Below, piece by piece: positions 5,436 through 34,163 of a stretch of 64,000 nt of DNA (position 1 is its first letter; the number at the start of each line of letters is the position of its first letter). A program made the position numbers and the translations under genes. The DNA lies in IMG/VR virus record IMGVR_UViG_3300045125_000034, positions 32,001 through 96,000 of that record, one strand, 5' to 3'. The notes under the pieces are model-generated. The model saw nothing but the letters and a program-made list of their open reading frames with translations. It was not told where the DNA came from and made no database searches. The DNA comes from a virus.

Positions 5436-5449
5436 TTCAGGAGTTAGGA

Positions 5450-5656
5450 GTGGAATACAAGTTCTATCCAACTGATGACAACGGTAATGAAATCCGCGAC
5501 CCCGAAACGGTGCGGAAGTATCATCATGCCATCATGTTGTTTGGAATGAAGTTTAGTGAGTATGTGAAGGAGATGGATCCTGACCTTTGGAAGAGAGCCG
5601 CAGATTATGCTGCCTCCTTCACAAAGGTTGATGGAATAGAATTCATGGGCCGATAG
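5450..5656 (+). CDS. Hypothetical protein
   Basis: Intact 68-aa ORF with AGGAG RBS lying between tRNAs. Confidence 0.55.
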   Translation: MEYKFYPTDDNGNEIRDPETVRKYHHAIMLFGMKFSEYVKEMDPDLWKRAADYAASFTKVDGIEFMGR

Positions 5657-5718
5657 TTCAACGGGAGAACAATGCCTTTGCAAGGCATGGGTTGGAGGTT
5701 CGAATCCTCTTCGGTCCA
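5647..5718 (+). tRNA. tRNA-Ala(TGC)
   Basis: Acceptor GGGCCGA/TCGGTCC with G3.U70, ATGCC-TT TGC AA-GGCAT. Confidence 0.95.
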
Positions 5719-5732
5719 CTACGGAGGTAATC

Positions 5733-5950
5733 ATGACAAGTCTAAACTCATACACGCCCGGACAGGGCTACAAAGAAGGCTACAATGATCGCATGAATGG
5801 TCTAGCGGATCGTTCTATCACTCATGCTACCACAGAGCCGTTTTGGATGGAGTATCGGCAGGGCTATATGCAAGCCGAGAGAAACATTATTGAGAAGGCT
5901 CGTCAGGAAGTCAGCTTGAGAGCCGCAGGTTCTTGGCAGAATGAATTTCG
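5733..5950 (+). CDS. Hypothetical protein
   Basis: RBS GGAGG; MTSLNSYTPGQGYKEGYNDR..; true end probably just before tRNA-Ser. Confidence 0.5.
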
Positions 5951-5956
5951 AAAAAA

Positions 5957-6044
5957 GGACAGATGGCAGAGCGGTTTAATGCGGCGGTCTTGAAAACCGC
6001 TGAAGGGTGCATAGCCCTTCGGGGTTCGAATCCCTCTCTGTCCG
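5957..6044 (+). tRNA. tRNA-Ser(TGA)
   Basis: GGACAGA/TCTGTCC, GCGGT-CT TGA AA-ACCGC, long variable arm, G73. Confidence 0.93.
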
Positions 6045-6049
6045 CTTTG

Positions 6050-6133
6050 GCGTGGGTTCCCGGAGTGGTCAAACGGGACAGACTGTAAATCTGTTGGCTT
6101 TCGTCTTCGTAGGTTCGAATCCTACCTCACGCA
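6050..6133 (+). tRNA. tRNA-Tyr(GTA)
   Basis: GCGTGGG/CTCACGC, ACAGA-CT GTA AA-TCTGT, long variable arm. Confidence 0.93.
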
Positions 6134-6136
6134 CTT

Positions 6137-6221
6137 GGGCAGATGGCAGAGTGGTCTAATGCAGCGGTCTACTAAACCGCAGAGGTTAACGCCTCCGAGG
6201 GTTCGAATCCTTCTCTGCCCG
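6137..6221 (+). tRNA. tRNA-Ser (anticodon reads ACT; GCT if a base-call error)
   Basis: GGGCAGA/TCTGCCC, GCGGT-CT ACT AA-ACCGC, long variable arm, G73. Confidence 0.88.
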
Positions 6222-6246
6222 CTTGGAATGCTAAATATGATAGCCA

Positions 6247-6609
6247 TGCACATATCATTCTTCCTACAACTACAATCTCAACTACGAGTCCTTCATTGGC
6301 AAACCAAGTCGTATGCCGAGCTACAAGGCTCTAGGTAAACTATACGATGCTTTGGACGGTTTGATTGACACCTATGTTGAGACCCATGCAGGAAAGTATG
6401 GCAACACCTTGGGCAATCCAAACTTCTCATTCAGCGTCAGCAACTACAAGGACTCCAATTCGTTGGGTGTCATCACCACGGCTATTGAGTTCCTGTCTAT
6501 TGAGTTGCCCAAGAAGTTGAATCCTAACACCGACACGGATCTACTAAACATTCGTGACGAGATGCTTGGTGCGCTCAATCAGACAAAATATCTGCTTCGT
6601 CTAGAATAG
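6247..6609 (+). CDS. Ferritin/Dps-like four-helix protein (DUF5856-like)
   Basis: QLRVLHWQTKSYAE-(H)KALGKLYDALDGLIDTYVE...LLNIRDEM; late-type TAAATA at 6232. Confidence 0.7.
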   Translation, partial: CTYHSSYNYNLNYESFIGKPSRMPSYKALGKLYDALDGLIDTYVETHAGKYGNTLGNPNFSFSVSNYKDSNSLGVITTAIEFLSIELPKKLNPNTDTDLLNIRDEMLGALNQTKYLLRLE

Positions 6610-6612
6610 TTG

Positions 6613-6641
6613 TTGACGGCGAGCGGTTCGTCGGCTATAAT
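6613..6641 (+). promoter_or_regulatory. sigma70-type promoter for tRNA-Glu and downstream RNAs
   Basis: TTGACG-N17-TATAAT. Confidence 0.8.
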
Positions 6642-6655
6642 ACTCTAGACAACTT

Positions 6656-6728
6656 GGCCCCTATCGTCTAGTGGTTAGGATCAGAGACTTTCATTCTCTT
6701 GGCCGGGGTTCGAATCCCCGTAGGGTCA
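6656..6728 (+). tRNA. tRNA-Glu(TTC)
   Basis: AGAGA-CT TTC AT-TCTCT, T arm CGGGG-TTCGAAT-CCCCG, acceptor GGCCC(C)TA/TAGGGTC. Confidence 0.92.
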
Positions 6729-6736
6729 CTAAAACC

Positions 6737-6890
6737 TTGATGGGATTGTTAACCCCATCAAAAACTCTGACTGTCCATCACACCTACCTGCCCACTAACG
6801 GTAGGAACCCTAGTGTGCGATGCGGTTGGAGGGCGTAGTTGAGTGCTTCTTCTAGATGTACACTAGAGAGCAACAGGTCTACTGCCTTTC
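6737..6890 (+). ncRNA. Candidate structured ncRNA of unknown family
   Basis: Three consecutive helical domains: TTGATGGG/CCCATCAA; CTCTGACTG/CGGTTGGAG enclosing CCTACC/GGTAGG; AGGGCGTAG/CTACTGCCTT enclosing CTAG/CTAG, followed by a T tract. No ORF. Confidence 0.45.
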
Positions 6891-6897
6891 TTTTTAC

Positions 6898-7017
6898 GGG
6901 GGTTGTTCTTCGGTTAAAGCAGTAACAACCAAAGGTAGAATTGTCGGTGGCATGATCGCTAGTTACTGAGTTCTTGTAAGTTAAACATCGGCAGCGGGTT
7001 CGAATCCCGCACCCCCC
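6898..7017 (+). ncRNA. tRNA-like ncRNA (T arm and acceptor-like stem, no canonical D/anticodon arms)
   Basis: GCGGG-TTCGAAT-CCCGC (6994-7010) followed by ACCCCC, which pairs with 5' GGGGGT; internal helix TGTCGGTG/CATCGGCA. Confidence 0.6.
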
Positions 7018-7033
7018 TTTAGGAGTCTACACC

Positions 7034-8089
7034 ATGAAGATTGAAGAAGATGTCAAGTTGGATTTCGCTGATGTCCTGATTCGTCCTAAGCGAAGCAACC
7101 TTGAGAGCCGCAGCAAGGTTGACCTAAACCGAACATTCAAGTTCACTTTGCCAAACGGCGAAGAGACATGGACAGGCATTCCTCTCGTAGCGGCTAACAT
7201 GGATTCAACAGGGACCATCCCTATGGCTAAAGCACTATCCAAGTGGGAGGCTATGGGTGCGGTTCATAAGCATGTTCCGATTCGTGAGTGGAAGGAAGCC
7301 AACATTCACGATTGGTTTCCCGCCGCCATCTCATGCAACATCATCTATACGATGGGCATGGGAGACAACAACAGCAACGCCAAGGAGATGTTGAAGGCTC
7401 AAGAGGTGCTTGATACGCACCCACAGATCAAGTTCATCTGTATTGATGTTGCTAACGGATACACACAGAAGTTCGTCAACTTCGTTAGCAACATTCGTGG
7501 GTTCTTCCCGAAGCACATCATCATTGCAGGTAATGTAGTCACGCGAGGAGATGACGGAGGCACTACTTCTCGCAGGTGCTAACATCGTCAAGGTTGGTAT
7601 TGGGCACGGCTCAGTATGCACTACACGCAAGGTCGCGGGCGTGGGGTATCCACAACTCTCTGCAATCATGGAGTGTGCTGATGCTGCTCATGGTCTTGGC
7701 GGTTTCGTCATGGCTGATGGTGGCTGCACTTGTCCGGGTGACATCGCAAAGGCATACGGTGCGGGTGCTGACTTTGTGATGATCGGCGGTATGCTCTGCG
7801 GAAGCGGACGAGGCAGCAGGAGAGATCACAGAGAACGGCAAGGAGTTCTATGGCATGAGTTCTGCTGATGCTATGCAAAAGTATCTCAGGCGGTGTTGCT
7901 GCCTACCGTGCACCAGAGGGCAAGAAGGTTTATGTCAAGGCTAGTGGTCCTGCCGATGCAACGATTCGACAGATACTTGGTGGAGTTCGTTCTGCTTGCA
8001 CTTATGTCGGTGCAGAGAGGTTGAAAGACCTTCCGAAATGTACAACATTCGTGAGGGTTAACCGGCAACTCAACAACATCTTCACCTAA
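7034..8089 (+). CDS. guaC: GMP reductase (frameshifted)
   Basis: [65 protein letters not shown]. Confidence 0.95.
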
Positions 8090-8105
8090 CTACTAATGGC
8101 ACTAT

Positions 8106-8177
8106 GCGGATGTAACTCAATGGCAGAGTGTTGGCCTTCCATGCCAAATGTTGAGGGTTCGACTCCCTTCATCCGCT
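8106..8177 (+). tRNA. tRNA-Gly(TCC)
   Basis: GCGGATG/CATCCGC, U73, TTGGC-CT TCC AT-GCCAA. Confidence 0.95.
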
Positions 8178-8180
8178 TTA

Positions 8181-8255
<75 letters not shown>

Positions 8256-8651
8256 TATAGGAGGTTTTATGGGCGGTAAACATTCAGCAGGTAAGGGAGA
8301 CACCTACAGGAAGGTGGACTACGGTTTATGGTCTAAAAATTGGGATGCGATTTTCCAAAAGAAGACCAAGAAGAAGAGTGTAAAACTTGCACCCAAGCGA
8401 AAGCCGTGATTATACTAAACACTATATCACAACTAGAGTCGCCGTGATGTATGGCGGGTCGCTTTGGAGAAAGAGATGGTCATAGAAGATTTCGCCACAC
8501 ACGCAAACATCGGAGAGTTTGCCCGTAGAGGCTGCACGGATCGTAGAGTGGGAGACTGAGGGTAAGTTCGGAACGACACAAGCGTTTGAAGAGATCAAGA
8601 AGGCTTATCTTGCTTTGAAGCAGGCTAACGCAGAGATCAAGGGACTAACAA

Positions 8652-9273
8652 ATGGATGAAGAGATGGAGACATACAGCAGAGAACTAATCACCGAGATAT
8701 CATTGTCTCGCGTCTTCTCTCATGTTGAGGAAGAGACCGTTCGCTTATCCTCACCGCGTTTCGTGGTAGCAACTCTCTGCAAGTAAACAGAACGCAGAAC
8801 AAGAAACTTGAGAACGACATTCGCTCCGCAGGGTTTGGCTTTGAGAAGGTTGTTGGAACCTACGAAGAAGACCTTGGCGATGGCAAGAAGCGTAGAGTAA
8901 CCGAAGAGTCTTTCATGATTATCGGTGACGATGACTCTGATGCAAAGGTGGGTGCTATCAAGGGTTTCGCTAAGAAGATGGGAGCAAAGTACGAGCAGGA
9001 CGCTATCTTCTTCAAGTCGCCAAAGTCCCCACAGGGCTTCGTGATTGGAACCAAAGCAGATGCATGGCACGTTGCATGGGCAAGGAAGAGTCTGTTGGTG
9101 AGTTCAAGCCCAACCGACTAAGTGGTATCTACACAGCATTGAAGACCAAGAACAAGGAACCCATTCGCGGTTTCAAGTTTGAGGAGTTTCATCACCCAAT
9201 GACCGTGACTCAGATTTGGGTGCGTCATCTCATGAAGAAGAAAGGTATAGACAATGGTGAACAAGTTTCGTGA
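8652..9273 (+). CDS. Conserved phage hypothetical protein (frameshifted)
   Basis: ..ELITE-ISLSRLLSHVE..ILTAFRGSNS..EESFMIIG..KYEQDAIFFK; pattern familiar from large-phage proteins. Confidence 0.5.
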
Positions 9274-9463
9274 ACTACGCCGCCGTCGCAAGCGGAAGTA
9301 TGAAGCCCGCAAGTTGAAGCGGCAGGAAGGTCTACTCAACGCGAAGAAGGAAGCTCTTCGTAAGTTGGAAGACCGTGGCATTCTTCCCACTTGGGTTAAG
9401 AAGAAGAAGTTCTCTGCCGACCGAGAACCGACCGCATACGAGAAGGCTAGATACAAGGCTTGA
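9254..9463 (+). CDS. Small basic hypothetical protein
   Basis: Intact Arg/Lys-rich 69-aa ORF. Confidence 0.5.
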   Translation: MVNKFRELRRRRKRKYEARKLKRQEGLLNAKKEALRKLEDRGILPTWVKKKKFSADREPTAYEKARYKA

Positions 9464-9473
9464 TCGTAAGCAT

Positions 9474-9545
9474 TCCCGAGTAGCACAGCGGTAGTGCAAT
9501 CGGCTGTTAACCGATGGGTCGTTGGTTCAAATCCAACCTTGGGAG
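9474..9545 (+). tRNA. tRNA-Asn(GTT)
   Basis: TCCCGAG/CTTGGGA, G73, ATCGG-CT GTT AA-CCGAT. Confidence 0.95.
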
Positions 9546-9573
9546 TTGACAATACTTGGTTAGATGCTATACT
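9546..9573 (+). promoter_or_regulatory. sigma70-type promoter for the tRNA-Leu pair
   Basis: TTGACA-N16-TATACT with TGn. Confidence 0.75.
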
Positions 9574-9581
9574 ACCTGTAT

Positions 9582-9655
9582 GGGATCGTAGACCAACGGC
9601 AGAGTCAACGGATTTAAAAATCCGTAAAGTATGGGTTCGAATCCCATCGGTCCTA
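9582..9655 (+). tRNA. tRNA-Leu(TAA), short variable loop
   Basis: GGGATCG/CGGTCCT, A73, ACGGA-TT TAA AA(A)-TCCGT; the extra A is probably a homopolymer error. Confidence 0.8.
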
Positions 9656-9659
9656 TAAT

Positions 9660-9744
9660 GCGGAGTGAAGCTGGAATTGGCATACACGGCGGATTCAAAA
9701 TCCGCTGCCCTCTAAAGGCGTGTGGGTTCGAATCCACCTCCGCA
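9660..9744 (+). tRNA. tRNA-Leu(CAA)
   Basis: GCGGA-TT CAA AA-TCCGC, long variable arm; some read errors in the stems. Confidence 0.88.
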
Positions 9745-9953
9745 CTTCGTTCAGATTCCGTTAAGCCAACATATCTACTGTCATGGAAACCATAACACAC
9801 ATCTCTCTTGGTCTGTCCGCACTTTCTTTCATCTCCGCATTTCAGATTAAACTGTACAGGTGGGCATACGCTCGCGGTCACGCGCACGGACACCACACAG
9901 GATTTACTCACGGTCTGTGGAAGGCTCACGAAAGAAATAACCACAAAAAGACC

Positions 9954-9982
9954 TTGACGCAGGTCTGAGCCTGTGATACAAT
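9954..9982 (+). promoter_or_regulatory. sigma70-type promoter
   Basis: TTGACG-N17-TACAAT with TGn, upstream of ATG 9990. Confidence 0.7.
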
Positions 9983-9989
9983 CTTCGTA

Positions 9990-10313
9990 ATGGCAACCCC
10001 AATATACATCATTGGCAAAGATGAAACCTTCACCACCATCCATCAGAAGTGGGCAGACAAGTTCATCTCTATGGTCAAGAGCAACAAGACCTTGGTGTGT
10101 AAGGTTTGCAAGCACGAAGTCCCCGCCAAGGGGGATGAAGGAAAAGATGAAGATTTCGTCTGCTTCCCCTGCTTCCGCGATGAACATAATGGTGAGCCTT
10201 CAAAGAACAAAGAGTACTTTGATAGCCTGAACAAGCAGGACGCAGTAGAGAAGGTTCGTGAGGCGAAGCGAAAGCCTAGAAAGAAGAAGGTACAGAATGA
10301 CGCTACCGTATGA
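9990..10313 (+). CDS. Zinc-finger hypothetical protein
   Basis: CKVC...CFPC motif pair in an intact ORF. Confidence 0.6.
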   Translation: MATPIYIIGKDETFTTIHQKWADKFISMVKSNKTLVCKVCKHEVPAKGDEGKDEDFVCFPCFRDEHNGEPSKNKEYFDSLNKQDAVEKVREAKRKPRKKKVQNDATV

Positions 10314-10697
10314 ATCCTACAACTCTCTAGTCAACACCCGAGAGTTCCTGAAGGAAGTGATGAACAACTCCAAGATGTCCAAGGCAGAGATGCGTAAGAG
10401 GGCTAGAGATAGCTACTAAAGCATTTCCCTGCGGAGTTTGATTTCAAGAGGTGGATCATGGATCACGAAAAAGATCACCGCCGAATGGGTCAAGCCTGAA
10501 GCAGAGCAGCGTGGTTATATCTGTATTGGTCGCCATGATCCTGTAGAGTACAGCCCCGAAAATAAGGGATGGATCTTTTTGGGATGAAACATGGACACGC
10601 CCATCAAAGGGGTTCCTCTCCGAAGAGGAGTGCCAGAAGGCTCTCTCACAGTATGTAGAAGACCTTGGAAGCGGAAGAGACCTCTAAATAAGATCGC

Positions 10698-10779
10698 GTC
10701 GGTGTGGTGAAATTGGCATACACGAAAGATTTAGGTTCTTTTGCCGCGAGGCGTGTGGGTTCGACTCCCTCCACCGACA
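10698..10779 (+). tRNA. tRNA-Leu(TAG)
   Basis: GTCGGTG/CACCGAC, AAAGA-TT TAG GT-TCTTT, long variable arm. Confidence 0.93.
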
Positions 10780-10784
10780 TTCAC

Positions 10785-10858
10785 AGTCCCATAACTCAAC
10801 GGCTAAGAGTGCTTCCTTTACACGGAAGAAGTTGTAGGTTCGAATCCTATGGGGACTA
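10785..10858 (+). tRNA. tRNA-Val(TAC)
   Basis: CTTCC-TT TAC AC-GGAAG, D stem ACTC/GAGT, GTAGG-TTCGAAT. Confidence 0.92.
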
Positions 10859-10860
10859 CT

Positions 10861-10934
10861 GCCACCTTAGCAGAGCGGTAATGCGTCGCTTTTGTAAAGC
10901 GAAGATCATGGGTTCCGATTCCCCATAGGTGGCT
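10861..10934 (+). tRNA. tRNA-Thr(TGT)
   Basis: GCCACCT/AGGTGGC, TCGCT-TT TGT AA-AGCGA. Confidence 0.9.
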
Positions 10935-23015: not shown

Positions 23016-24082
23016 ATGAGCGACTTTCTAAAGAGCATGATTCGTGCTTCGGGTAACGAGTGGGCAACCATAGCAGAGGATGGAGTTGATGGTGATGTTG
23101 CGGGCTTTGTAGACACAGGCTCGTACATCTTCAACGCTCTCCTGTCGGGTTCACTCACAGGCGGTATCGCAAGCAACAAGATCCTTGGTATCGCAGGCGA
23201 GAGTGCTACGGGCAAGACCTACTTTGCCCTTGGTATCGCCGCACAGTTCTTGAAGGACAATCCCGATGGAGCGATCCTCTACTTTGACAGCGAGCAGGCT
23301 GTTACGAGTGAGATGATCTCAGGCAGAGTGTCTTGACCCCGCTCGCGTAGCCGTATTCCCTGTGGCTACTGTGGAGCAGTTCCGTCATCAGTTGCTACAG
23401 ATCATAGACAACTACGGCAAGTTGGACGAGAAGAAGCGTAAGCCCTTCTTTGTGGTGTTGGACCTCGCTAGGCATGTTGAGCACTAGCAAGGAAACCAAC
23501 GACACACTTGAAGGCAAGGAAGTCAGGGACATGACTCGCTCGCAGGTTATCAAGGGAACCTTCCGAGTCCTGACCATGAAGTTGGGTCTGCACAAGATCC
23601 CGATGGTTGTGACGAACCACACCTACGATGTCGTTGGTGCGTATGTTCCGACCAAGGAGATGGGTGGTGGTAGCGGTCTGAAGTATGCTGCGTCTACCAT
23701 CGTTTACCTGTCCAAGAAGAAGCATAAGGTAGATGACGAGGTTGTGGGTAACATCATTCATTGCAAGTTGTATAAGGCTCGCTTCACCCGCGAGAACAAG
23801 ATGGTTGATGTGCTACTTACCTTTGACAAGGGGCTAGATAGATACTATGGTCTAGTTGACCTTGCTCTCTCGCAGGTAGTGTTCAAGAAGGTTTCCACCA
23901 AGATTGAACTACCCGATGGGACTACCGCCTTTGAGAGTCAGATCAACAAGAACCCCACCAAGTTCTTCACTGAGCAGGTCATGAAGTCCCTTGAGGCAGC
24001 AGCCGCGAAGGAGTTCAAGTACGGTAGCGACAGCGAAAGTGAAGTAGAAACAGAAAAGGAATTGGAGACAGCAGATGAGTAA
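23016..24082 (+). CDS. uvsX: RecA-like recombinase
   Basis: [45 protein letters not shown]. Confidence 0.95.
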
Positions 24083-24755
24083 GTTTTTGAGCATAGTAGT
24101 TCCGTATAGAAACAGGCAAGAACATCTTGCGGTGTTTGCTCCGCATATGGAAAAGTTCCTTTACGACTTGGGTATAGAAAACTTCAAAATACTTATTGTT
24201 GAACAGGATGATCCACTCGTGAGGTCAAGCATTCAACAGAGCAAAACTTTTGAATGTTGGATTTGATTTGAGTAAGGACTATGACTATTTTTGTTTCCAC
24301 GATGTCGATATGATACCTACCGAAGCAGACTACAGTTGGGTGGATGAACCTACTCACATGGCAACAGAGTGTTCACAATTTGGATATCAGTTGCCATATG
24401 GTGGTTACTTTGGTGGGGTCACTCTATTCAATAAGCAAGACTTTTTGGATGTAAATGGTTACAGTAACGACTACTGGGGTTGGGGAGCAGAGGACGATGA
24501 TATGATGCTTCGTTGCTATTCTAAAAACAAATTGCACCCTCCTGCACATACCAAGAAGGCGTGGAAGATATGAATCTCTAAGCCATCAGAGAAGAATAAT
24601 ATTGAATGAGTATAAGGGGAACATACAAAAACTACAGACACTAAATCCAGATAATGTCTGTTTAGAGGGGTCTGAACACCCTTCATATGAGACCCTTGAT
24701 ATCAATCCGTATCCCAATACACAGCATACAACAATAGTAAAGGTGTCTATATGAG
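24075..24755 (+). CDS. GT7 beta-1,4-galactosyltransferase-like protein
   Basis: [48 protein letters not shown]. Confidence 0.9.
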
Positions 24756-25549
24756 TAAAGGTCTAATACTTGGGTCTTCAAAGGGTCTTTCTCTAGACCA
24801 ACTATATCCTTGGGCATCTTCTGCTTCAGAAACAGGGAATAGAGTTGTGTTACTTAACATGGATGGAGAGAGTAACAAAATGCTATCCCTTCAGTTAAAG
24901 GGGATTGGGATTGAAGTCAGGGATGTTGTTTCCGACAACACACTATCTCCGCATAATGCTAGATTTGTGGCTCAACACGAATACTTAAGCCGGGCGCGAC
25001 GAGGAATATTGTGTAATCACAGATGTTAGAGATGTTTTGTTTCAGGAGTGATCCAATAGAATGGATCACCAATAACATAGAAAATTATGATGTTGTATGT
25101 GCTAGTGAGGGTCTTCTTTATAAGGACGAACCTTGGGGTAGAGGTAATTTGATAGAGGGGTATCCCGATTTGTATGAGAGCCATAAAGACAACCCAATCA
25201 TGAATGTTGGTGTTATTGGGGAAATGCAGAGGAAGTTGCAAAGGTTTGTCTTAGAATATTTGAAATGTGCAAGGCAAACAAAGCATACTTAGCAGATCAA
25301 TCGTCTTTTAATGTTATCTGTGCTGACAGCACTATGCAGAACAAAATAAAGAAGACAACATCAAGAGATCCTTTTGCCTTGCATTGTAGTTGCTTGATTA
25401 GAAACTGCCGAGGTAGTAGTTTTGTCTTGAATGAGTCTACGGTTCATCTGTTAAAAGATCCCGAACCAATAAACGAAAAAGGAGTTCTAAAAACTCCGAG
25501 TGGTATCCCTTATTCTATAGTGCATCAATGGGATAGGATGCCGTCATGA
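24751..25549 (+). CDS. Putative glycosyltransferase-like protein
   Basis: TDVRDV.F..DP, EPWG, NVGVIG, DQSSFN, IVHQWDR. Confidence 0.6.
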
Positions 25550-26349
25550 AAACTGTTTGCAGAAGATATCCCGATTGGTTAAATTTTGAATTGGATTTCC
25601 CTACAGAGATTCATTTACAATACCCAGAATTTCCATTTGACCCCAAAGATGGGGTATACCGAGTGTATTGTGATTCCTTTGAGCCATCGACTTCTTGTGC
25701 AAATCCAAAACAAATAAGTAAGATATTGCTCCTGTATGACCTCATTCTTACGAAAAATGAAAACATAGTTTCGGAATATCCAAACGCTAAGTTGTTCTTC
25801 TTTGGTAATTCTATGATGTATCCTGATGTTCCCGGCAGGAAAGAATTCTCCGTGTCTTTCTTGACAACAAAACCCAATTGGCATTTGCCGGGCTATGATT
25901 TGAGGTATGAACTGTGGGGCAAACAAGACGAGATACTTATCCCCAAGGTATTCTATAGTTCAAGAAGAATGCCAATAGATTCTTCTCGTATACTTCCGGG
26001 AGATGGCGGGGACAAGGATAAGATGTTGATGTTTGAATCAATGTTTCACATAGCAATAGAAAATACCAATGAGAAGAACTACTTCACAGAGAAGATAAAC
26101 GATTGTTTTTGGACGGAAACAGTACCCTTGTATTGGGGCAACAAAGATACAATCAACAGTAAATTTGACTCTCGGGGGTAATACACTTCCAATCAATACC
26201 AGAACTGATAGAGTTATGCAATTCTCTAACGCCCGACGATTACACTTCTAGGCTTGAGAGTATAAAGAACAACAAAGAACTATCTAAAGAATACTCAAGG
26301 CATATGAACGAACGCATCCGTGATGAAATTTTAATGAGAAGAAGATGAA
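25546..26349 (+). CDS. GT10 (alpha-1,3-fucosyltransferase-like) glycosyltransferase
   Basis: MFHIAIENTNEKNYFTEKINDCFWTETVPLYWG. Confidence 0.85.
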
Positions 26350-27080
26350 GTGGTGTTTTGGAATAGTGTTCAATGGTATTGACTATTTGAGCAGACAAAT
26401 AGTCTCAATCAAGAACCAAGAGGGTATCTGTACAAACGACTATCAGATAATTTTAGTAGGGTCCAAGCACAGACGAATCTTCAAGATTGATTTCTTCGTT
26501 TCGGTCTGAAGGAATAGATATCTCTCTTATACCGTTTCAAGACACATCCGAAATGGGCTGGATAACTAAGAAGAAGAATCTTGTGGCTTACATGTCCAAG
26601 TACGAGAACTTAGTTATAACACACGACTATGTTGGTTTCTGCCGTGGGTGGTATAGAAATTTTGTTGAGTTTGGTGAGGATTGGGAGGTGTGCATGAACT
26701 CAATAAGAAGAGATGATGGTAGAAGGTTTAGGGATTGGATTACCTTTAAGGAATGGTGGGGTTGGCCTCTATTTCTTCCTTATGAAGTTACGGATCAAAC
26801 ATCCAAAATGTATGTTAGCGGAACTTATTGGTGCGCGAAGAAACACTACATGGTCAAAAACCCATTAAACGAAAAATCTAAGATGGGGGCAGGGTGAAGA
26901 CCTAGAGTGGTCTCATAGATGCAGGCACACTTGGAACTATAAGATAAACAAGAACTCTGTAGTTAAGTTGATGAAAGAGAAATTATGGAAGGGACAGCCC
27001 GACTATAGCCCGCACCCAGATACTGATCCTAATGTTGATGAAATTCTTACATCGTCAGAGGTTCAACCATGAAGGTTATA
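26345..27080 (+). CDS. GT2-like glycosyltransferase
   Basis: GWITKKKNL..YENLVITHDY..GRRFRDW..YVSGTYWCAKK..PLNE..GQGEDLEWS. Confidence 0.7.
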
Positions 27081-27517
27081 GCACACAGAGGAAATGTGTT
27101 TGGTCCGATACCTCTAAGGAAAACAATCCAAAGTATATTGAAGCAGCATTAGATCTTGGGTTTGATGTTGAGATTGATGTTTGGTTTGACGAGAGTGATT
27201 CGTGCGCGGGGTATTATCTCGGTCACGATCATCCCTTGTATAAAATTGATGCCTCTTGGTTGATGCGTGATGGAGTTTGGTGTCATGCCAAAAACCAGAA
27301 GGCACTAGAAAGAATGTTTTGTGACAAAATCCCCAACTATTTTTGGCATCAGGAAGATAGATTCACCATAACTAGTAGAGGTGATATATGGTGTTACCCA
27401 AACAATCCTAGTCGGTCGGGGATATTAGTCGATGTAGGTAGACCCAAACGAGGTCTTGATATTCGTGGAGTGTGTACAGACTACGCAAATGAATGGAAAA
27501 TGGAGTATAGAACATGA
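27069..27517 (+). CDS. Short glycerophosphodiester phosphodiesterase-like (PLC-like) protein
   Basis: MKVIAHRGN..ENNP.YIEAAL..GFDVEIDVW..LGHD..WCHAKN..FWHQED..GVCTDY. Confidence 0.8.
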
Positions 27518-28481
27518 AAACACTAGACATTTTTTACCTCACCTTTTCTAGACCAAACTTTCTTATTGCTCATGCTAGGGAAATAGCAGCAGCAATAAAG
27601 AAGAAGCCGGTGGTGAATTCAGTTGTATTTTTGGGCAATCCCAGCAGAATTCCTCAAGAAATTAAAGATCAACTCAAGGCAATTCTTGGTTCTAAACTCG
27701 TTATAGAAGATCACTACAAGAATCGAAGAGTACATGGCTAAACTTGATCGTATAGCCAGTTCTAAATCAGACTATACGATGAAGATTGACGAGGATTGCT
27801 ACATGACCTCCGAATCTTGGGTTAAGATGTTTGATTTGATGGACGAGATACAAGACAACGATTTGTTTGGTACTGGTTGTATAACAAACGGTATACCAAC
27901 ATGTGATCTTTTTCTTCAGAACCACGCACCAAAAGTAAAAGATCGAATCGAAACTGACTATTTCTGCAAGGCTCAGTTTTACCCCCATAAATGGAGCAGA
28001 TTATAGGGTGCTAAACCATCCATCATTGAAGATGAAATGGAATCCCGATCTTTTCTGGCATCTATTGTCTACAGTAAATCACCCCTATCAGGGGATTCAC
28101 CCCATGCGTCTTATGGGGGACGCAAACATAGTTCTAAACGATCACATAGTCAACAACTTTGATGAAACTATGCTTCCTAAAGACCTTCCTGTTATACACG
28201 AAAAGGACAAGTACCCCCATTACTGTCCCCAAGTTCTTTTGATGAAACCAGAAAATCTAAAGAAAGTCTTGTCTTCCAAAGAACTTTTTTATGACATGTA
28301 CGACGAAGTACCGCTGAACTTGTATAGAGAAAAACACGGAATGGCAATGGCTATAGGTGTAGGAATTCCAATACTTCATACTATGTTTAACTGGTCTCAG
28401 CAGTATGAATATGAAAGAACTCTTATAGATCGTTTGTGCAAGATATCTGAAGACCGCCATCAAAAAGAAGTATTCGTATGA
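27514..28481 (+). CDS. Putative GT-A glycosyltransferase (frameshifted)
   Basis: IFYLTFSRP, YTMKIDEDCY (DxD), NGIPTCD, YDEVPLN. Confidence 0.55.
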
Positions 28482-29199
28482 CCCCGATGAAGTTCAGGTA
28501 GTTATACCTCTTGCGGGGGAAGGCAAAAGATTTAGAGACAGGTATTCTTGCCCAAAGCCTCTCATAGACATAAGAGGCGAAAAGATGATATCTTTAGCCT
28601 TTAGAACTTTAGATATTCCTCACAGCAAAGCAGTATTCATAATACGATCAGATCACGATTACGATGGTATGTTATCAAAAACCATAGAGGAATTTTGTCC
28701 GAAAAGTTCTATAGTAGTTGTTGATAAATTGACAGAAGGTCCGTGCTGTACCGCTTTGTTGGCAAAACCACATTTAGAATCAGATAAACCTCTCGTTGTA
28801 GCGAATTGCGATCAGGTTATGAGATGGAGTGGTTCTAGGTTTATAAGATATTGTATAAGAGAAAACTATGATGGGGTTGTAGTAACCTATCATGAAGCCA
28901 CACCGAAAAATAGTTACGCTCGTTTAAACAAAAATGGGGATGTTGTTGAAGTAAGAGAGAAGAATCAGATAAGTTGTGTATCTTTGAACGGCATACACTA
29001 TTGGAAGAGAGCAGATTATTTCTTCGAATCTTCCGAAAAGATGATGAAAGCAGATGATAGGACTAACAATGAGTTTTACATTGCTCCCTCTTACAATTAC
29101 ATGATTGCTGATGGGCATACCGTTGGTATCTACCACATTCCCAATGAACAGCATTATGCTATCGGTACTACTCAAGATTTGGAGACCTACATAGGATAG
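28478..29199 (+). CDS. Sugar-phosphate nucleotidyltransferase
   Basis: VIPLAGEGKRF..PKPLIDI, TEGP, VANCDQ, EK..IS, NNEFYIAPSYN, IGT. Confidence 0.88.
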
Positions 29200-29220
29200 G
29201 ACACAGAACGAGGTTCCGTG

Positions 29221-29548
29221 ATGATAGTTGATATGATTCAGAACTATGTCTCGTGGGTGGTTTGTTGGAGACTTCGAACCTAGTATTCACAAAACTGATA
29301 AATTTGAAGTAGGCGTTCTTACCCACAAGAAGGGCGAGAAGTGGGCTGCTCATTACCATAAAGAAGCAAGAGAGATAAACCTTCTACTTGAGGGTAAGAT
29401 GTTGATGCATGGAGTGGAGTTGCAAGAAGGATCCATTTTTGTTCTTGAGCCTTGGGAAGTAGCAGATCCAATATTTCTTGAAGACTGCAAAGTTCTAGTA
29501 ATCAAAACCCCGTCTATAAAAGGAGACAAATATGAAGTTGTTTGTTGA
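29221..29548 (+). CDS. Cupin-fold protein
   Basis: GWFVGDFEPS..HYHKEAREINLLLEG..G.IFVLEP.EV..VIKTPS. Confidence 0.75.
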
Positions 29549-30789
29549 TGAAAACAGCATTGATCGTGAGAAGTATTTTGTTGTTACCTATATGGTCGAG
29601 TCTGATAAAAGTCTTAGAGATGCTGCTTGGAATATTGCCATAGGTCAAAGTGTCGGAAACCCAAATGTTAGGGGAACAGGTGGGAGACCGGAAGACCTGT
29701 TTAAAAATCATTCGTGTCTCATCCTCGGGGACGAAGGGGAACTTAGTGTCCAAAAAATAGGAAAGGTCAAGATTGCTTTCCCCGTAATCAATACAGATTG
29801 GGAAACAGACGGAATTAGCCATTTCATGTGCCAAGTCATGGGTGGGCATGTGGACATTGATTTGGTTAAGAGATGTCGTGCTATTGATATAGATTTCCTG
29901 CATAGTGTTACAAAGCACTTCAAAGGTCCACGGTTTGGAATAACGGGAATGCGTGAATTTACAGGGCAATACGATAAGCCACTTTTGGTGCTATCATAAA
30001 GCCTAAGATTGGAATAAGCCCAGAGACACTATTGGATATGGTTAAGGAACTAGTAGAAGGTGGGGTTGACTTCTATAAAAGAAGATGAAATCATGTCCAA
30101 CCCATCATTCTGCCCGCTAGACACTCGGGTGGGTATGATCTCCAATTACTTGGCATCACAATCAAGAAATGTGGTATTTTGCCACACCATAAACTGCGAT
30201 CCGCATGTTCTAGAAAGTAGAGTTAGTCGCATACATTCTCTTGGCGGTAATGGAGTACACATCAATGTATGGAGTGGGTATGGTTCATACAACAGCATAC
30301 GAAAGATGGATCTGCCGATATACATTCATTTCCAGAGTAGTGGAGCAAAAGTCACAACCAACATTACAAATCAGTTCAGTATTAGTTGGCCTGTCATCTG
30401 CAAATTGGCAACAATGATGGGAGTCGATACCATTCAGACGGGAATGGTTGGTGGATACAGCAACGATAATCCCGAAGAAATTCTAGAGTGTGTTCGTATT
30501 TTACAACAGGGGAATACTGTCCCTGTCCTGAGTTGCGGATTGCATCCGGGTCTTGTTGATAAGATAACCTCACTAGTAGGTAACGACTATTTGGGCAATG
30601 CTGGCGGTTCAATTCACGGACACCCAAATGGAACACTATCGGGTGCTAGAGCAATGCGTCAGGTCCATAGACAAAACTTATGGGGTCGAGTACAATGAGG
30701 CAATAGCCAAATGGGGTAAGGTTCAGCCCGAATTCAACATAAAGCAGTTGTATGAAACTGTAGAGTACCAACTAAATTCTAAGGAGTAA
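29532..30789 (+). CDS. RuBisCO-like protein (form IV RLP; frameshifted)
   Basis: AIGQSVG, IAFP, GPRFGITGMR, GAIIKPKIG, GGVDF(I)KEDE, LSCGLHPG, AGGSIHGHPNG..GARAMRQ. Confidence 0.9.
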
Positions 30790-30796
30790 ATGTAAT

Positions 30797-31403
30797 ATGC
30801 AATGGCAAACAGATCTAATAGCAGACATTCGGTTTAATGATCCTAACATAGATGATAGAGATGATGTAACCGGCTTGTTTCTGGCTATGGGTAGACATTT
30901 CGAATTTACGAATGACAACCATACAGCATTACAGAAGGCAATAAGTGCCTGTAGAACTCCCCCAAAAACTTTTTGAAATTGGTGTGTGCAGAAATGCATC
31001 ACAGTCATCTACACATACTATAATAAAAAATGTTCCATCGGACGGGGTTTATCTCGGTGTGGATCTTGATGACAAGACATTTTTAAACGACGCATCAAAG
31101 GGTATACACACCATAAAAACATCATCTTCAAACTACGATGAGGTTGTTAATAGATTAACTAGTCTTGGTGTTAAGACTTTGGATTTCATATTCATTGATG
31201 GTTGGCACAGTATAAATCAGGTTCTTAAAGATTGGGAGTATACAAAACTATTGTCTGACGGTGGTGTTGTTGGGTTCCATGATACTCGACTGCATCCGGG
31301 TCCGCACTATTTTATAAACAATCTGAATAGAGATAAGTGGGAAGTACACTCCAATCTTTGCCCCAATGATTGGGGTTTGGGATATTGTAGAAGAAAGGAT
31401 TGA
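30797..31403 (+). CDS. Class I SAM-dependent methyltransferase (Methyltransf_24-like)
   Basis: FEIGV, GVD, LDFIFIDGWHS, LLSDGGVVGFHD. Confidence 0.8.
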
Positions 31404-32342
31404 TAACTTGAGAAAACTGCATTAGTCACAGGAGCGTCGGGTTTCATCGGCTCAAACTTGGTTGACCATCTTGTTGGTTTGGGGTGGGATGTTGTTGGTA
31501 TAGACAATGAATCTAGCCTAGCCCACGACAAGTTCCACTACAACTCAAAGGCATCATATGTACCAAAGGATGAAGCAGACATCTCTACAGAGAAGCCTTG
31601 GAAGGCATTAGCCAACCATAAGTTTGACTATGTGTTTCATATGGGTGCAGAGTGTCGTATTCAGCAATGCATAGAGAATCCTGCCCTATGCATATCAACT
31701 AATGTTTTAGGTACAGTAAAGACTCTTGAATACGCCGCGAAGATAGGAGCAAAGAGACTTGTGTTCTCGTCCACCTCCTCCATATACTCAGGCTGTGACT
31801 ATGCAGCAGATGAGAACGAAGAGCCGATCTGCATCAATCCCTACGCTTCCACTAAACTTTCGGGAGAGGTCTTCTGCAAGCAGTACAGTATGACTACTGA
31901 GTTGGATACGGTTGTGCTTCGTTACTTCAATGTGTACGGCGAGAGACAGCCAATCCGTGGTTCGTATGCTCCTGTAATCGGTGTGTTTCAACGACAACTA
32001 GCAGAGAGAAGACAGCATTTACAATAGTTGGAGATGGTGAACAGCGTAGAGACTTCTGTAAATGTAAAGGATGTTTGCAGAGCCAATGTTATTGCTGCAA
32101 CAAACGAGGAATACACCCAAAGATACAACGCCGAGGTATTCAATATCGGAACAGGAGTAAACTACTCCGTAAATCAGGTAGCCGATATGGTCTCCCCCAC
32201 CCACAATAGAATAAATCTACCCGCCCGAGATGGCGAGGCTAGAATAACCTTATGTGATTGGGAGAAGGCACAAAATTGGTTGGGGTGGTCCCCACAAATA
32301 CAACTTTCTGATTGGTTATCGGTTGACAAGGCGGCAGTTTAG
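31400..32342 (+). CDS. NAD-dependent nucleotide-sugar epimerase/dehydratase
   Basis: ALVTGASGFIGS, SSTSSIY, YASTK, LRYFNVYG, NIGTG. Confidence 0.92.
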
Positions 32343-34063: not shown

Positions 34064-34136
34064 GGGAGCGGGGGTCTTTGGTTGCGCCAGATTGGTTTAT
34101 ACCCGATTGGAACAGGTTCGATTCCTGACGCTCCTA
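34064..34136 (+). tRNA. tRNA-Ile(TAT) with an atypical D arm
   Basis: GGGAGCG/CGCTCCT, A73, ATTGG-TT TAT AC-CCGAT, CAGG-TTCGATT-CCTG. Confidence 0.7.
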
Positions 34137-34163
34137 CTAAATACTCACAAAGGAGATTACACC

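What the first reader, a model, noticed from the sequence alone, without database searches (positions are those of the whole stretch)
27069..30789. Phage RuBisCO-like protein in a nucleotide-sugar module: candidate new biosynthetic pathway
Seen: a form IV RLP translationally coupled behind a nucleotidyltransferase and a cupin, with a phosphodiesterase-like gene upstream and a methyltransferase and epimerase downstream. By eye it keeps K175/K177 (KPK), the carbamylation/metal motif (KEDE) and the phosphate loops (SCG, AGG), but appears to lack H294 (IHFQ), H327 (IQTG) and loop-6 K334 (VGGY), so it is unlikely to fix CO2. Known: characterised RLPs perform enolate chemistry in methionine salvage and in catabolism of branched sugars such as apiose and hamamelose. 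Inference: here the RLP works anabolically to make an unusual, possibly branched, sugar or polyol phosphate that is NDP-activated and used by the adjacent glycosyltransferases. I know of no characterised RLP with that role.
Basis: partly seen in the sequence, partly recalled or inferred. Interest (0 to 1): 0.85.

Follow-up and report, generated by a model that had tools for sequence, protein, structure and literature searches.

The report
Phage RuBisCO-like sugar-activation cassette
A freshwater T4-like phage carries a RuBisCO relative that cannot fix CO2 and sits in a conserved, sometimes fused, gene cassette with a sugar-activating nucleotidyltransferase, a small metal cupin and a miniature phosphodiesterase, which points to an untested glycan-building job for the RuBisCO fold.

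Summary
The genes are there, but broken. The whole record is full of single-base indels (at least 1.7 frame switches per kb), and the RuBisCO-like protein (RLP) itself has three. Read through them, it is a 418-aa protein with no stop codon, 81% identical to intact relatives, and it keeps every family-invariant residue.

K175, K177, K201, D203 and E204 are kept. H294 is Q, H327 is Q and K334 is Y, so it is not a carboxylase.

The RLP belongs to the published phage/Beckwithbacteria 'Form IV-like' clade, whose function is unknown. In my tree this clade is monophyletic (support 0.998).

- **Neighbourhood:** in 67 phage loci with full flanks, the nucleotidyltransferase lies nearby in 66, the cupin in 50 and the mini-phosphodiesterase in 52.
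- **Cellular genomes:** the RLP-nucleotidyltransferase pair recurs in SAR11, CPR bacteria, DPANN archaea and Legionella.
- **Fusions:** natural fusions link all four proteins.
- **Complex model:** an RLP-nucleotidyltransferase model passed its controls.

The anabolic, nucleotide-activation reading is therefore supported by comparison. No biochemistry exists, and nothing here supports a branched sugar or polyol product.

This scan has already flagged the same cassette on other genomes. New here are the fusion network and an optional beta-phosphoglucomutase-like HAD member; I also tested and rejected the idea that this HAD replaces the RLP.

The parts
26336..27066 (+). Unknown cluster gene (my family c51, about 255 aa intact), broken over 3 frames. 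It recurs next to the cassette in a few phage loci.
   Evidence: tblastn of L014:11268-12035 covers 26336-27066 in three frames. blastp of the piece 26487-26897 gives 50% identity. The intact ortholog has no Pfam match.
27069..27517 (+). Mini-GDPD-like phosphodiesterase (my family c2, about 148 aa) with one frameshift near 27110. It keeps the HRG...E.D...GHD catalytic-type motif.
   Evidence: Family HMM hit 2.3e-43. 47% identical to L006:11191-11628. Motif conservation shown in alignment A3. Profile against PDB: GDPD 7e0v, E 0.005, over the first 50 residues only. AF2 model of the ortholog has pLDDT 93.5, and its best Foldseek hits are GDPDs (1v8e E 4.6e-3, probability 0.98, TMq 0.46-0.60).
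27514..28481 (+). Unknown protein of about 323 aa, a possible transferase, broken over 3 frames. Its start overlaps the mini-GDPD stop (ATGA) and its stop overlaps the nucleotidyltransferase start (ATGA).
   Evidence: Intact orthologs are L014:7637-8608 (39-66% identity by piece) and L015:6312-7238, both directly upstream of the nucleotidyltransferase. No Pfam match. Overlaps read.
28478..29199 (+). Nucleotidyltransferase (my family c1, RmlA/GlmU-like fold, GxGxR motif). One base is probably missing in the C-run just after the start codon.
   Evidence: Family HMM 8.5e-101. 69% identical to L006:8931-9683. Profile against PDB: uncharacterised NDP-sugar pyrophosphorylase 4evw 6e-34, then GDP-mannose pyrophosphorylases, HddC-like proteins and RmlA at 1e-12 to 1e-7. 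The domain fused to an RLP in P0122 reaches PF00483 at 1.7e-13.
29221..29548 (+). Small metal-type cupin (my family c3, about 107 aa) with the HxHx4E motif. An indel lies near 29245, and the last 17 nt overlap the RLP start.
   Evidence: Family HMM 1.9e-51. 82% identical to the L006 cupin. Invariant H44, H46 and E51. Profile against PDB: quercetinase YxaG 1.7e-5, small Cupin_2 proteins, 7zvm and KdgF.
29532..30789 (+). RuBisCO-like protein of the 'Form IV-like' Q294/Y334 clade. It is interrupted by three single-base indels (about 29988, 30074, 30663). Read through them it is 418 aa with no stop.
   Evidence: Pfam RuBisCO_large 8.7e-20 on the largest piece. Family HMM hits in four consecutive pieces. 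Indels located. The read-through is 81% identical to P0003 and keeps all 27 family-invariant columns. It sits in a phage-only subclade with support 0.995.
30797..31403 (+). Methyltransferase (my family c7; Methyltransf_24/CmcI-like) with one frameshift.
   Evidence: Pfam Methyltransf_24 9.6e-7. Family HMM 2.1e-73. Present within 6 genes of the RLP in 28 of 67 phage loci.
31407..32342 (+). NAD-dependent SDR epimerase/dehydratase (my family c4), broken near 32016-32030.
   Evidence: Pfam Epimerase 3.4e-28 and GDP_Man_Dehyd 2.4e-23. Family HMM 1.5e-55 and 2.5e-14 on two pieces. The GDG motif reads in a different frame at about 32017.
24069..26181 (+). Upstream glycosyltransferase-type genes of the same low-GC cluster: orthologs of the L006 GT7-like and GT10-like genes and of family c35. 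All are frameshifted.
   Evidence: tblastn/blastp to L006:3735-4394 (Glyco_transf_7N/7C) and L006:4391-5299 (Glyco_transf_10). GC is about 40% at 24-32 kb against about 48% in the flanks.

Best explanation
The RLP is one enzyme of a portable cassette that makes a nucleotide-activated, non-standard sugar-like unit for glycan decoration. The cassette consists of the RLP, an RmlA-like nucleotidyltransferase, usually a small metal cupin and a miniature GDPD-like phosphoesterase, and sometimes a beta-phosphoglucomutase-like HAD.

Proposed mechanism:
1. The RLP keeps the carbamylatable Lys-Asp-Glu magnesium site, K175/K177 and the P1 phosphate loops. It has lost the residues needed for carboxylation and C-C cleavage. 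It therefore most likely binds a keto-sugar phosphate and performs a Mg-dependent enolisation that ends in isomerisation or epimerisation.
2. Its product goes to the nucleotidyltransferase, probably within a physical complex. That enzyme attaches an NMP to give an NDP-linked donor.
3. The cupin (isomerase/epimerase type) and the mini-GDPD act on neighbouring steps.
4. The adjacent glycosyltransferases, DUF7796/WavE-like transferases, methyltransferases and SDR enzymes use and tailor the unit.

What is shown: gene content, residue pattern, fold, conserved linkage and natural fusions. What is inferred: the substrate, the reaction type, the order of steps and the acceptor. The broken reading frames in this record are most likely assembly errors.
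For: RLP identity and chemistry:
- Pfam RuBisCO_large match.
- AF2 model of the 81%-identical ortholog P0003 has pLDDT 93.1 and TM 0.89-0.90 to form III RuBisCO.
- K175, K177, K201, D203, E204, S379, G381 and G403 are invariant. H294 is Q and K334 is Y in all 22 aligned members and in the 94 complete-signature leaves of the tree clade.

Linkage in phages: of 67 loci with at least 4 genes on both sides, the nucleotidyltransferase lies within 6 genes in 66, the cupin in 50 and the mini-GDPD in 52. In 80 loci fetched through the cupin instead, 78 carry the RLP.

Linkage in cells: of 50 loci, the RLP lies next to the nucleotidyltransferase in nearly all. These include Pelagibacter, Beckwithbacteria, Saccharibacteria, Woesearchaeota, Micrarchaeota, Legionella, Nonomuraea and Turneriella. 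Neighbours include GT2, Wzz, LicD and SDR genes.

Natural fusions:
- RLP-nucleotidyltransferase (P0122, 667 aa; its transferase domain is 34% identical, 2e-56, to the cassette enzyme).
- miniGDPD-RLP.
- Nucleotidyltransferase-cupin, in 91 of 120 longer cupin relatives.
- HAD-nucleotidyltransferase-cupin.
- cupin-miniGDPD.
- miniGDPD-nucleotidyltransferase-cupin.

Complex model of the L006 RLP and nucleotidyltransferase: score 0.66 against a best control of 0.00. This mark was reached by 58 of 80 solved complexes and 2 of 110 mismatched pairs. The counts hold only roughly because my own alignments were used. The runs agree in at least 85% of contacts and the partner's pLDDT is at least 87. I know of no solved complex of this kind, from memory.

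Frameshifts as artefact: they occur across the whole window, including core replication genes. The RLP read-through keeps every invariant residue.
Against: - There is no biochemical evidence for any member of the clade.
- The nucleotidyltransferase resembles sugar-1-phosphate enzymes. Known RuBisCO-family substrates, in contrast, carry the phosphate on a primary carbon next to a carbonyl. The hand-over step is therefore chemically unspecified.
- The cupin and the mini-GDPD are missing from some cellular loci such as Legionella.
- Cassettes with HAD, nucleotidyltransferase, cupin and mini-GDPD but no RLP within 6-7 kb exist, so the RLP is not indispensable to the rest.
- The window's subclade has changed three pocket residues relative to the wider clade: Q to H at the N123 position, K/R295 to S and H327 to Q. 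Its substrate may therefore differ.
- The complex and structure models used intact orthologs, not this window's broken genes.
- I could not check raw reads to prove that the indels are errors.
Confidence: 0.6

Rival explanations
1. The order is reversed. The nucleotidyltransferase first makes an ordinary NDP-sugar. The RLP then works on the nucleotide-linked intermediate as an enolising epimerase or isomerase, with the diphosphate sitting in the retained P1 loop. The cupin acts like the cupin-type NDP-ketosugar isomerases and epimerases.
For: The nucleotidyltransferase profile is closest to sugar-1-phosphate enzymes such as GDP-mannose pyrophosphorylase, HddC and RmlA. Beta-phosphoglucomutase-like HAD domains are fused directly to it, which is the usual mutase-then-transferase order. 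Cassettes lacking the RLP exist, as expected if the RLP is a tailoring step. Most of the clade keeps K/R295 and H327, which could bind a second anionic group. The fusion and the complex model are equally compatible with this order.
Against: No RuBisCO-superfamily enzyme is known to accept a nucleotide-linked substrate (my knowledge). The active site is normally closed and sized for C5-C7 phosphates. In the Legionella loci I recognised only the RLP and the nucleotidyltransferase of the cassette.
Confidence: 0.17
2. The product is a CDP-alcohol-type donor, that is a ketose or polyol phosphate activated like CDP-ribitol. It is transferred as a phosphodiester-linked substituent rather than as a glycosyl residue. 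The mini-GDPD handles that phosphodiester chemistry.
For: RuBisCO-family substrates carry a primary phosphate ester next to a carbonyl (established knowledge), which is the type that TarI/IspD-like enzymes activate. A LicD-family phospho-alcohol transferase (PF04991, 6e-44) lies divergently next to the RLP in Legionella maceachernii, with orthologs in 3 more Legionellaceae loci. There is a weak RXYLT1_C hit beside a nucleotidyltransferase-cupin fusion in L144. The GDPD family acts on polyol-phosphate diesters. An SDR that could reduce a keto group lies two genes downstream in the window.
Against: LicD occurs only in the Legionellaceae loci. The nucleotidyltransferase scores far better against sugar-1-phosphate enzymes than against IspD (5ddt, 1.2e-4). 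The RXYLT1 hit is marked weak. Most linked transferases are GT-type or DUF7796/WavE-like.
Confidence: 0.12
3. The RLP is an auxiliary metabolic gene for salvage or catabolism, such as methionine or 5-deoxyribose salvage or acid-sugar breakdown. It only happens to sit in a glycan island.
For: All characterised RLPs work in salvage or catabolism (PMC6389311). RLP plus a phosphoesterase plus a cupin superficially recalls MtnW, MtnX and the cupin dioxygenase MtnD. MtnW is among the best sequence and fold matches.
Against: Scores are far below the MtnW and OiaX cutoffs. The catalytic Lys of MtnW at the N123 position is H or Q here. The linkage and fusion to a nucleotidyltransferase hold across phages, bacteria and archaea. 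The HAD members are of the beta-phosphoglucomutase type, and the enolase-phosphatase family was not among the NCBIfam matches shown. No other salvage genes were seen in the loci.
Confidence: 0.04
4. In this particular phage the cassette is decayed and non-functional, and the frameshifts are real.
For: Every cassette gene except the cupin core is interrupted. I could not inspect reads.
Against: The same indel density affects DNA polymerase B, UvsX and other core genes, which a viable phage cannot lose. The indels are single bases, partly in homopolymers, and long homopolymers are under-represented compared with relatives. No premature stops arise once the frames are followed, and all invariant residues are kept.
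Confidence: 0.05

Closest known systems
'Form IV-like' RuBisCO-related proteins of phages (Myoviridae) and Beckwithbacteria (Jaffe, Castelle, Dupont & Banfield, Mol Biol Evol 2019; PMC6389311)
   Same: Same kind of object: divergent RLPs on large myovirus contigs from IMG/VR that group with Beckwithbacteria sequences. My clade contains a Beckwithbacteria MAG locus (L099) and many IMG/VR myovirus contigs. As that paper states, key residues diverge from canonical form IV.
   Different: The paper left the function open. In the passages I read it does not mention the gene neighbourhood. Here the clade is defined by a fixed Q294/Y334 signature and by linkage, fusion and a modelled interface with a nucleotidyltransferase. 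It also extends to SAR11, DPANN archaea, Legionella and others. I could not compare directly with their sequences.
MtnW/YkrW 2,3-diketo-5-methylthiopentyl-1-phosphate enolase (methionine salvage RLP; PDB 2oem)
   Same: Same fold (TM 0.85). Same Mg site (K201/D203/E204) and P1 phosphate loops with a lost P2 site. Likely the same class of chemistry, namely enolisation of a phosphorylated keto compound.
   Different: Scores 160 bits against a cutoff of 409. The catalytic Lys at the N123 position is His or Gln. H294 is Gln. The genomic partners are a nucleotidyltransferase and glycan genes rather than salvage genes.
Form III archaeal RuBisCO (PDB 2cwx, 2d69, 3a12)
   Same: Best sequence match (1.5e-35) and best structural match (TM 0.89-0.90). 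K175, K177 and the carbamate-metal triad are conserved.
   Different: H294, R295, H298, H327 and K334 are all replaced in the window's protein. It scores 171 bits against a cutoff of 497. There is no AMP-pathway partner, whereas IF-2B fusions occur in other hits (P0156, P0179).
Nucleotide-sugar and CDP-alcohol activation modules such as GmhB-HddC (GDP-heptose) or TarJ-TarI / AbpA-AbpB (CDP-ribitol, CDP-arabinitol)
   Same: Same logic of a sugar-phosphate-modifying enzyme feeding an RmlA/IspD-fold nucleotidyltransferase inside a glycan cluster. HAD-nucleotidyltransferase fusions in some cassettes mirror the phosphatase or mutase plus transferase pairing.
   Different: None of those modules uses a RuBisCO-fold enzyme, a 107-aa HxHx4E cupin or a 148-aa GDPD remnant (my knowledge). 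The nearest solved relative of the nucleotidyltransferase, 4evw, is itself uncharacterised.

Membership tests
Bona fide RuBisCO (forms I-III) | Carbamylated Lys201 with Asp203/Glu204 metal site, plus K175 and K177 | tested here: met
   KPK and KEDE are present in the window's read-through and invariant in 22 relatives.
Bona fide RuBisCO (forms I-III) | H294, K334 (loop 6) and the P2 phosphate site R295/H298/H327, needed for carboxylation of RuBP | tested here: not met
   These positions read Q, Y, S, A and Q respectively in the window. Q294 and Y334 are invariant across the clade.
Bona fide RuBisCO (forms I-III) | Score above the curated NCBIfam cutoffs (rubisco_III 497, PRK04208 438) | tested here: not met
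   The intact ortholog P0003 scores 171.5 and 171.8 bits.
RuBisCO large-subunit fold (superfamily) | N-terminal alpha/beta domain plus C-terminal (beta/alpha)8 barrel | tested here: met
   AF2 model of P0003 (81% identical to the window's protein) has pLDDT 93.1 and TM 0.89-0.90 to 2d69/3a12 over about 415-437 columns. The window's own broken gene was not folded.
MtnW DK-MTP-1-P enolase | Curated equivalog score (NF007095 409; TIGR03332 513.6) and a catalytic Lys at the N123 position | tested here: not met
   Scores are 160 and 133.7 bits. His in the window's subclade and Gln in most of the clade align with the Geobacillus 'GK' Lys.
OiaX 3-oxo-isoapionate-4-phosphate decarboxylase (apiose catabolism RLP) | Curated equivalog score 700 | tested here: not met
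   138.2 bits.
'Form IV-like' phage/Beckwithbacteria RLP clade (Jaffe et al.) | Divergent RLP on myovirus contigs that clusters with Beckwithbacteria sequences apart from other RLPs | tested here: met
   T4-like context with gp23, UvsW/X/Y, gp44/45 and PolB. The clade, including Beckwithbacteria L099, is monophyletic with support 0.998 in a FastTree of 179 sequences. Identity with the published sequences themselves could not be checked.
Glycerophosphodiester phosphodiesterase (GDPD) family, for the 148-aa gene | Catalytic H-R ... E-x-D ... H-D motif | tested here: met
   H6, R7, E35, D37, H49 and D50 are invariant in alignment A3 and align with GDPD 7e0v.
Glycerophosphodiester phosphodiesterase (GDPD) family, for the 148-aa gene | Complete (beta/alpha)8 barrel of about 220-250 aa and a Pfam-level match | tested here: not met
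   The protein is only 145-150 aa and has no Pfam hit. Foldseek E is 4.6e-3 with TMq 0.46-0.60. It is a cut-down relative, not a standard member.
Sugar-phosphate nucleotidyltransferase (PF00483-type) | N-terminal G-x-G-x-R loop and RmlA/GlmU-like fold, with a score over the Pfam cutoff | tested here: inconclusive
   The motif P13/G16/G18/R20 is invariant. The profile hits 4evw at 6e-34 and RmlA/GMPP enzymes at 1e-12 to 1e-7. The fused copy in P0122 passes PF00483 (51 bits against 21.2). The window's and L006's own copies fall below Pfam cutoffs.
Metal-binding cupin | Motif 1, G(x)5HxH(x)3-4E(x)6G | tested here: met
   H44, H46, E51 and G58 are invariant across RLP-linked and HAD-linked copies. 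The second cupin motif has no His. Pfam Cupin_7 scores 18.4 bits against a cutoff of 27.

The most novel reading that the evidence does not exclude
The Q294/Y334 RLP clade is the first biosynthetic branch of the RuBisCO superfamily. It forms a complex with a dedicated nucleotidyltransferase and, together with the mini-cupin and the mini-GDPD, produces a so far undescribed nucleotide-activated sugar or sugar-like unit. Phages, giant viruses, SAR11, CPR bacteria, DPANN archaea and Legionella would use this unit to decorate surface glycans.
Probability: 0.5. Interest if true: 0.8.

Novelty: new variant of a known kind. Interest (0 to 1): 0.62.

Why it matters
Every characterised non-carboxylating RuBisCO relative works in salvage or catabolism. 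A clade wired to sugar activation would add an anabolic, glycan-building role to one of the most studied enzyme folds.

It would also define a new activated donor present in very abundant aquatic microbes and their viruses. SAR11 and its phages both carry the cassette, so the glycan may bear on phage-host recognition.

Culturable carriers exist, including Legionella maceachernii, L. nautarum, L. drozanskii, Nonomuraea rosea and Azospirillum oleiclasticum (its RLP context was not resolved here). The question can therefore be tested directly.

This particular window is a poor template because of its indel errors. Intact orthologs such as those in L006 and L014 should be used instead.

Tried and rejected
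- **Alternative genetic code as the cause of the short ORFs.** Reassigning TGA, TAG or TAA does not restore long plus-strand ORFs. Single-base indels explain the breaks.
- **My own idea that a beta-phosphoglucomutase-like HAD replaces the RLP.** Four metagenome loci have HAD, nucleotidyltransferase, cupin and mini-GDPD with no RLP. However, in 80 IMG/VR loci fetched through the cupin, 78 have the RLP and 10 have both RLP and HAD. The HAD is an optional extra member, not a substitute. It is also not of the enolase-phosphatase type: the best NCBIfam match is the beta-PGM family TIGR02009.
- **LicD as the universal transferase of the cassette.** It was found only in 4 Legionellaceae loci.
- **DNA hypermodification.** Neither a thymidylate synthase nor a dCMP hydroxymethylase family gene was found in the 145-kb record. 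This is weak evidence, because the record is 67% complete and frameshifted.
- **GenBank phage collection.** There was no DNA match for the cassette and no tblastn match for the RLP, so I could not name an isolate that carries it.
- **DUF7796 (family c6).** Its profile has no PDB sequence relative. It shows only a distant WavE link (hhalign 80%).
- **Pfam and NCBIfam.** Neither gave anything for the 323-aa gene, c51, c12 or c18.

Full report
**1. What is in the window**

Under table 11 the 64-kb window has no ORF longer than 286 aa, and no stop-codon reassignment repairs this. I built family HMMs from intact relatives and used them to map the cassette:

- mini-GDPD-like gene, 27069-27517
- an unmentioned gene of about 323 aa, 27514-28481
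- nucleotidyltransferase, 28478-29199
- cupin, 29221-29548
- RLP, 29532-30789
- methyltransferase, 30797-31403
- SDR epimerase/dehydratase, 31407-32342

The cupin overlaps the RLP by 17 nt, and two upstream junctions are ATGA overlaps.

The RLP carries three single-base indels: a missing G at about 29988, an extra T at 30074 and an extra G at 30663. I read it through with X at the first break. The result is 418 aa with no stop, 81% identical to the intact relative P0003, and it keeps all 27 columns that are invariant in a 22-member family alignment.

Frame switches are not specific to this gene. At least 26 occur in 19 genes over 15 kb (1.7 per kb), including DNA polymerase B and UvsX. Long homopolymers are under-represented compared with relatives. 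I therefore read the breaks as assembly error.

**2. The genome**

The window lies in a 145-kb IMG/VR virus record estimated to be 67% complete. Relatives of the locus sit between gp23, UvsW, UvsY, UvsX, PolB and the gp44/45 clamp genes, so this is a T4-like myovirus. The closest isolates by UvsX are Methylophilales phage Melnitz (69%) and Pelagibacter phage HTVC008M (65%). The glycan cluster at 24-32 kb has about 40% GC, against about 48% on either side.

**3. The RLP**

Pfam RuBisCO_large matches the largest piece at 8.7e-20. More than a thousand metagenomic proteins match. The best are intact proteins of 395-418 aa with up to 89% identity.

- Kept: K175, K177, K201, D203, E204, S379, G381, G403 and G404.
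- Changed: H294 to Q, R295 to S, H298 to A, H327 to Q and K334 to Y.
- The N123 position, where MtnW has its catalytic Lys, is His.

NCBIfam scores for the intact ortholog are far below every curated cutoff: form III 171 against 497, MtnW 160 against 409 and OiaX 138 against 700. An AF2 model of P0003 is confident (pLDDT 93.1) and shows the complete large-subunit fold. Its TM-score is 0.89-0.90 to archaeal form III RuBisCO and 0.85 to MtnW.

I built a FastTree of 179 sequences: phage loci, cellular loci and 50%-identity representatives. The sequences carrying Q294 and Y334 form one clade with support 0.998. The window falls in a phage-only subclade defined by H at the N123 position, S295 and Q327, with support 0.995. 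Most of the wider clade has Q, K/R and H at those three positions.

**4. Known literature**

Jaffe et al. (PMC6389311) reported about 80 'Form IV-like' RLPs on phage contigs, some from Myoviridae. These group with Beckwithbacteria sequences, and the authors left the function open. My clade contains a Beckwithbacteria locus (L099), so I take it to be the same clade. Six full-text searches found no paper linking an RLP to a nucleotidyltransferase or to glycan synthesis.

**5. Neighbourhood**

A scan of IMG/VR found 203 contigs with the RLP, and I analysed 81 loci. Among the 67 loci with at least four genes on both sides:

- the nucleotidyltransferase family lies within six genes in 66, usually in the order nucleotidyltransferase-cupin-RLP
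- the cupin in 50
- the mini-GDPD in 52
- a Methyltransf_24-like methyltransferase in 28
- a DUF7796 protein, distantly WavE-like, in 29

FkbM methyltransferases, SDR enzymes, and GT1-, GT2- and WavE-type genes are common too.

I then entered from the cupin side as an independent route. This gave 363 IMG/VR contigs, and of the best 80 loci 78 carry the RLP.

In cellular genomes, 50 loci were found. They come from Pelagibacter (including a complete genome), Patescibacteria, DPANN archaea, Verrucomicrobia, Planctomycetes, three Legionella species, Tatlockia, Francisellaceae, Nonomuraea, Azospirillum, Turneriella and others. The RLP lies next to the nucleotidyltransferase in nearly all of them. 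The mini-GDPD is often present and the cupin sometimes. Neighbours include GT2, Wzz, a LicD-family transferase in Legionellaceae, a 2-hydroxyacid dehydrogenase and a CMP-type cytidylyltransferase.

**6. Fusions and modelled contact**

P0122 (667 aa) is a natural fusion of an RLP to a nucleotidyltransferase. Its transferase domain passes PF00483 and is 34% identical (2e-56) to the cassette enzyme.

Among 120 longer relatives of the cupin I found these architectures:

| Architecture | Count |
|---|---|
| nucleotidyltransferase-cupin | 91 |
| HAD-nucleotidyltransferase-cupin | 7 |
| cupin-nucleotidyltransferase | 3 |
| cupin-miniGDPD or miniGDPD-cupin | 4 |
| miniGDPD-nucleotidyltransferase-cupin | 1 |
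| fusions to methyltransferases or DUF7796 | several |

One miniGDPD-RLP fusion also turned up, among the RLP representatives (P0148).

Each of the four core proteins is therefore fused to another of them in at least one lineage.

A complex model of the L006 RLP and nucleotidyltransferase scored 0.66, with a best control of 0.00. That mark was reached by 58 of 80 solved complexes and 2 of 110 mismatched pairs. The counts hold only roughly because I used my own alignments. The runs agree in at least 85% of contacts and the partner's pLDDT is at least 87. The model supports binding; it does not show it.

**7. The partners**

- **Nucleotidyltransferase:** it has the GxGxR loop. Its closest solved relative is the uncharacterised 4evw (6e-34), followed by GDP-mannose pyrophosphorylases, HddC-like enzymes and RmlA.
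- **Cupin:** it has an invariant HxHx4E metal motif and matches quercetinase-type and small Cupin_2 proteins.
- **148-aa protein:** it has the GDPD catalytic motif. A confident model (pLDDT 93.5) has GDPDs as its best structural matches, but only as a cut-down barrel.
- **HAD domains:** where present, they are of the beta-phosphoglucomutase family.

**8. A hypothesis I tested and dropped**

Four metagenome loci have HAD, nucleotidyltransferase, cupin and mini-GDPD with no RLP. RLP/HAD displacement has a precedent in methionine salvage, so I asked whether the HAD replaces the RLP. It does not: ten of the 80 viral cupin loci carry both. The HAD is an optional fifth member. The RLP-less loci do show that the other three proteins can work without an RLP.

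**9. Reading**

The nucleotidyltransferase is the hub of the cassette, and the RLP is its most constant partner. The residue pattern shows an intact Mg/carbamate site, K175/K177 and the P1 phosphate loops, with no H294 or K334. This fits an enzyme that enolises a phosphorylated keto sugar and ends in isomerisation or epimerisation rather than carboxylation or cleavage. Its product, or its substrate if the order is reversed, is nucleotide-activated and then used by the surrounding transferases.

The substrate, the product, the order of steps and the acceptor are all inferred. The polyol-phosphate variant has only lineage-restricted hints: LicD in Legionellaceae and one weak RXYLT1_C hit. No thymidylate synthase or hydroxymethylase family gene was found in the record, so a role in DNA glycosylation has no support.

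**10. Relation to earlier notes of this scan**

The same cassette has been followed up on other genomes several times. I re-derived the linkage, the cellular distribution and the fusions independently.

Noticed in passing
window 1-64000 (whole record): The record is riddled with single-base indels. No ORF exceeds 286 aa, and there are at least 1.7 frame switches per kb across 19 homology-mapped genes, including PolB and UvsX. Any gene-level reading of this record needs frameshift-aware translation.
   Followed up: partly
window 3901-10934 and 34064-34137: Fifteen tRNA genes, fourteen of them in a 7-kb cluster. One call at 9581-9656 has a four-base anticodon (taaa) and no assigned amino acid, which may be another indel artefact.
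   Followed up: no
window 24000-32000: The glycan/RLP cluster is a low-GC island (about 40% against about 48% in the flanks) inserted just after the PolB and UvsX genes. This suggests a horizontally exchanged or hypervariable module.
   Followed up: no
P0180 (583 aa): A TIR_2 domain is fused to the N-terminus of a full-length RuBisCO-family protein (RuBisCO_large 9.8e-46). It lies outside the Q294/Y334 clade and could be a defence-type architecture.
   Followed up: no
P0156 (726 aa) and P0179 (742 aa): IF-2B (ribose-1,5-bisphosphate isomerase-type) domains are fused to RuBisCO-family proteins that score strongly on both RuBisCO Pfam domains. These are single-chain versions of two AMP-pathway steps.
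   Followed up: no
L132:6916-7755 (-) and orthologs in L131, L133, L135: In Legionella maceachernii, L. nautarum and L. drozanskii a LicD-family phospho-alcohol transferase is transcribed divergently right next to the RLP-nucleotidyltransferase pair. In Tatlockia (L131) it lies two genes away. A carboxymuconolactone-decarboxylase-family gene lies nearby.
   Followed up: partly
L141:5609-6952 (-): A single 448-aa protein joins the mini-GDPD to a DUF7796 domain, next to a HAD-nucleotidyltransferase-cupin fusion on a contig that also has a mitochondrial-carrier gene. The contig is probably from a giant virus or a eukaryote.
   Followed up: partly
L003:12580-13194 and L003:14495-15304: In one phage lineage a DHBP-synthase (RibB-like) gene and a transaldolase-like gene lie a few genes downstream of the RLP. 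Both act on pentose-phosphate-pathway sugars and could feed the cassette.
   Followed up: no
window 31407-32342: The SDR gene shows an apparent in-frame TAG at 32025-32027, but the conserved GDG motif reads in a different frame there. At least two further indels are likely.
   Followed up: partly
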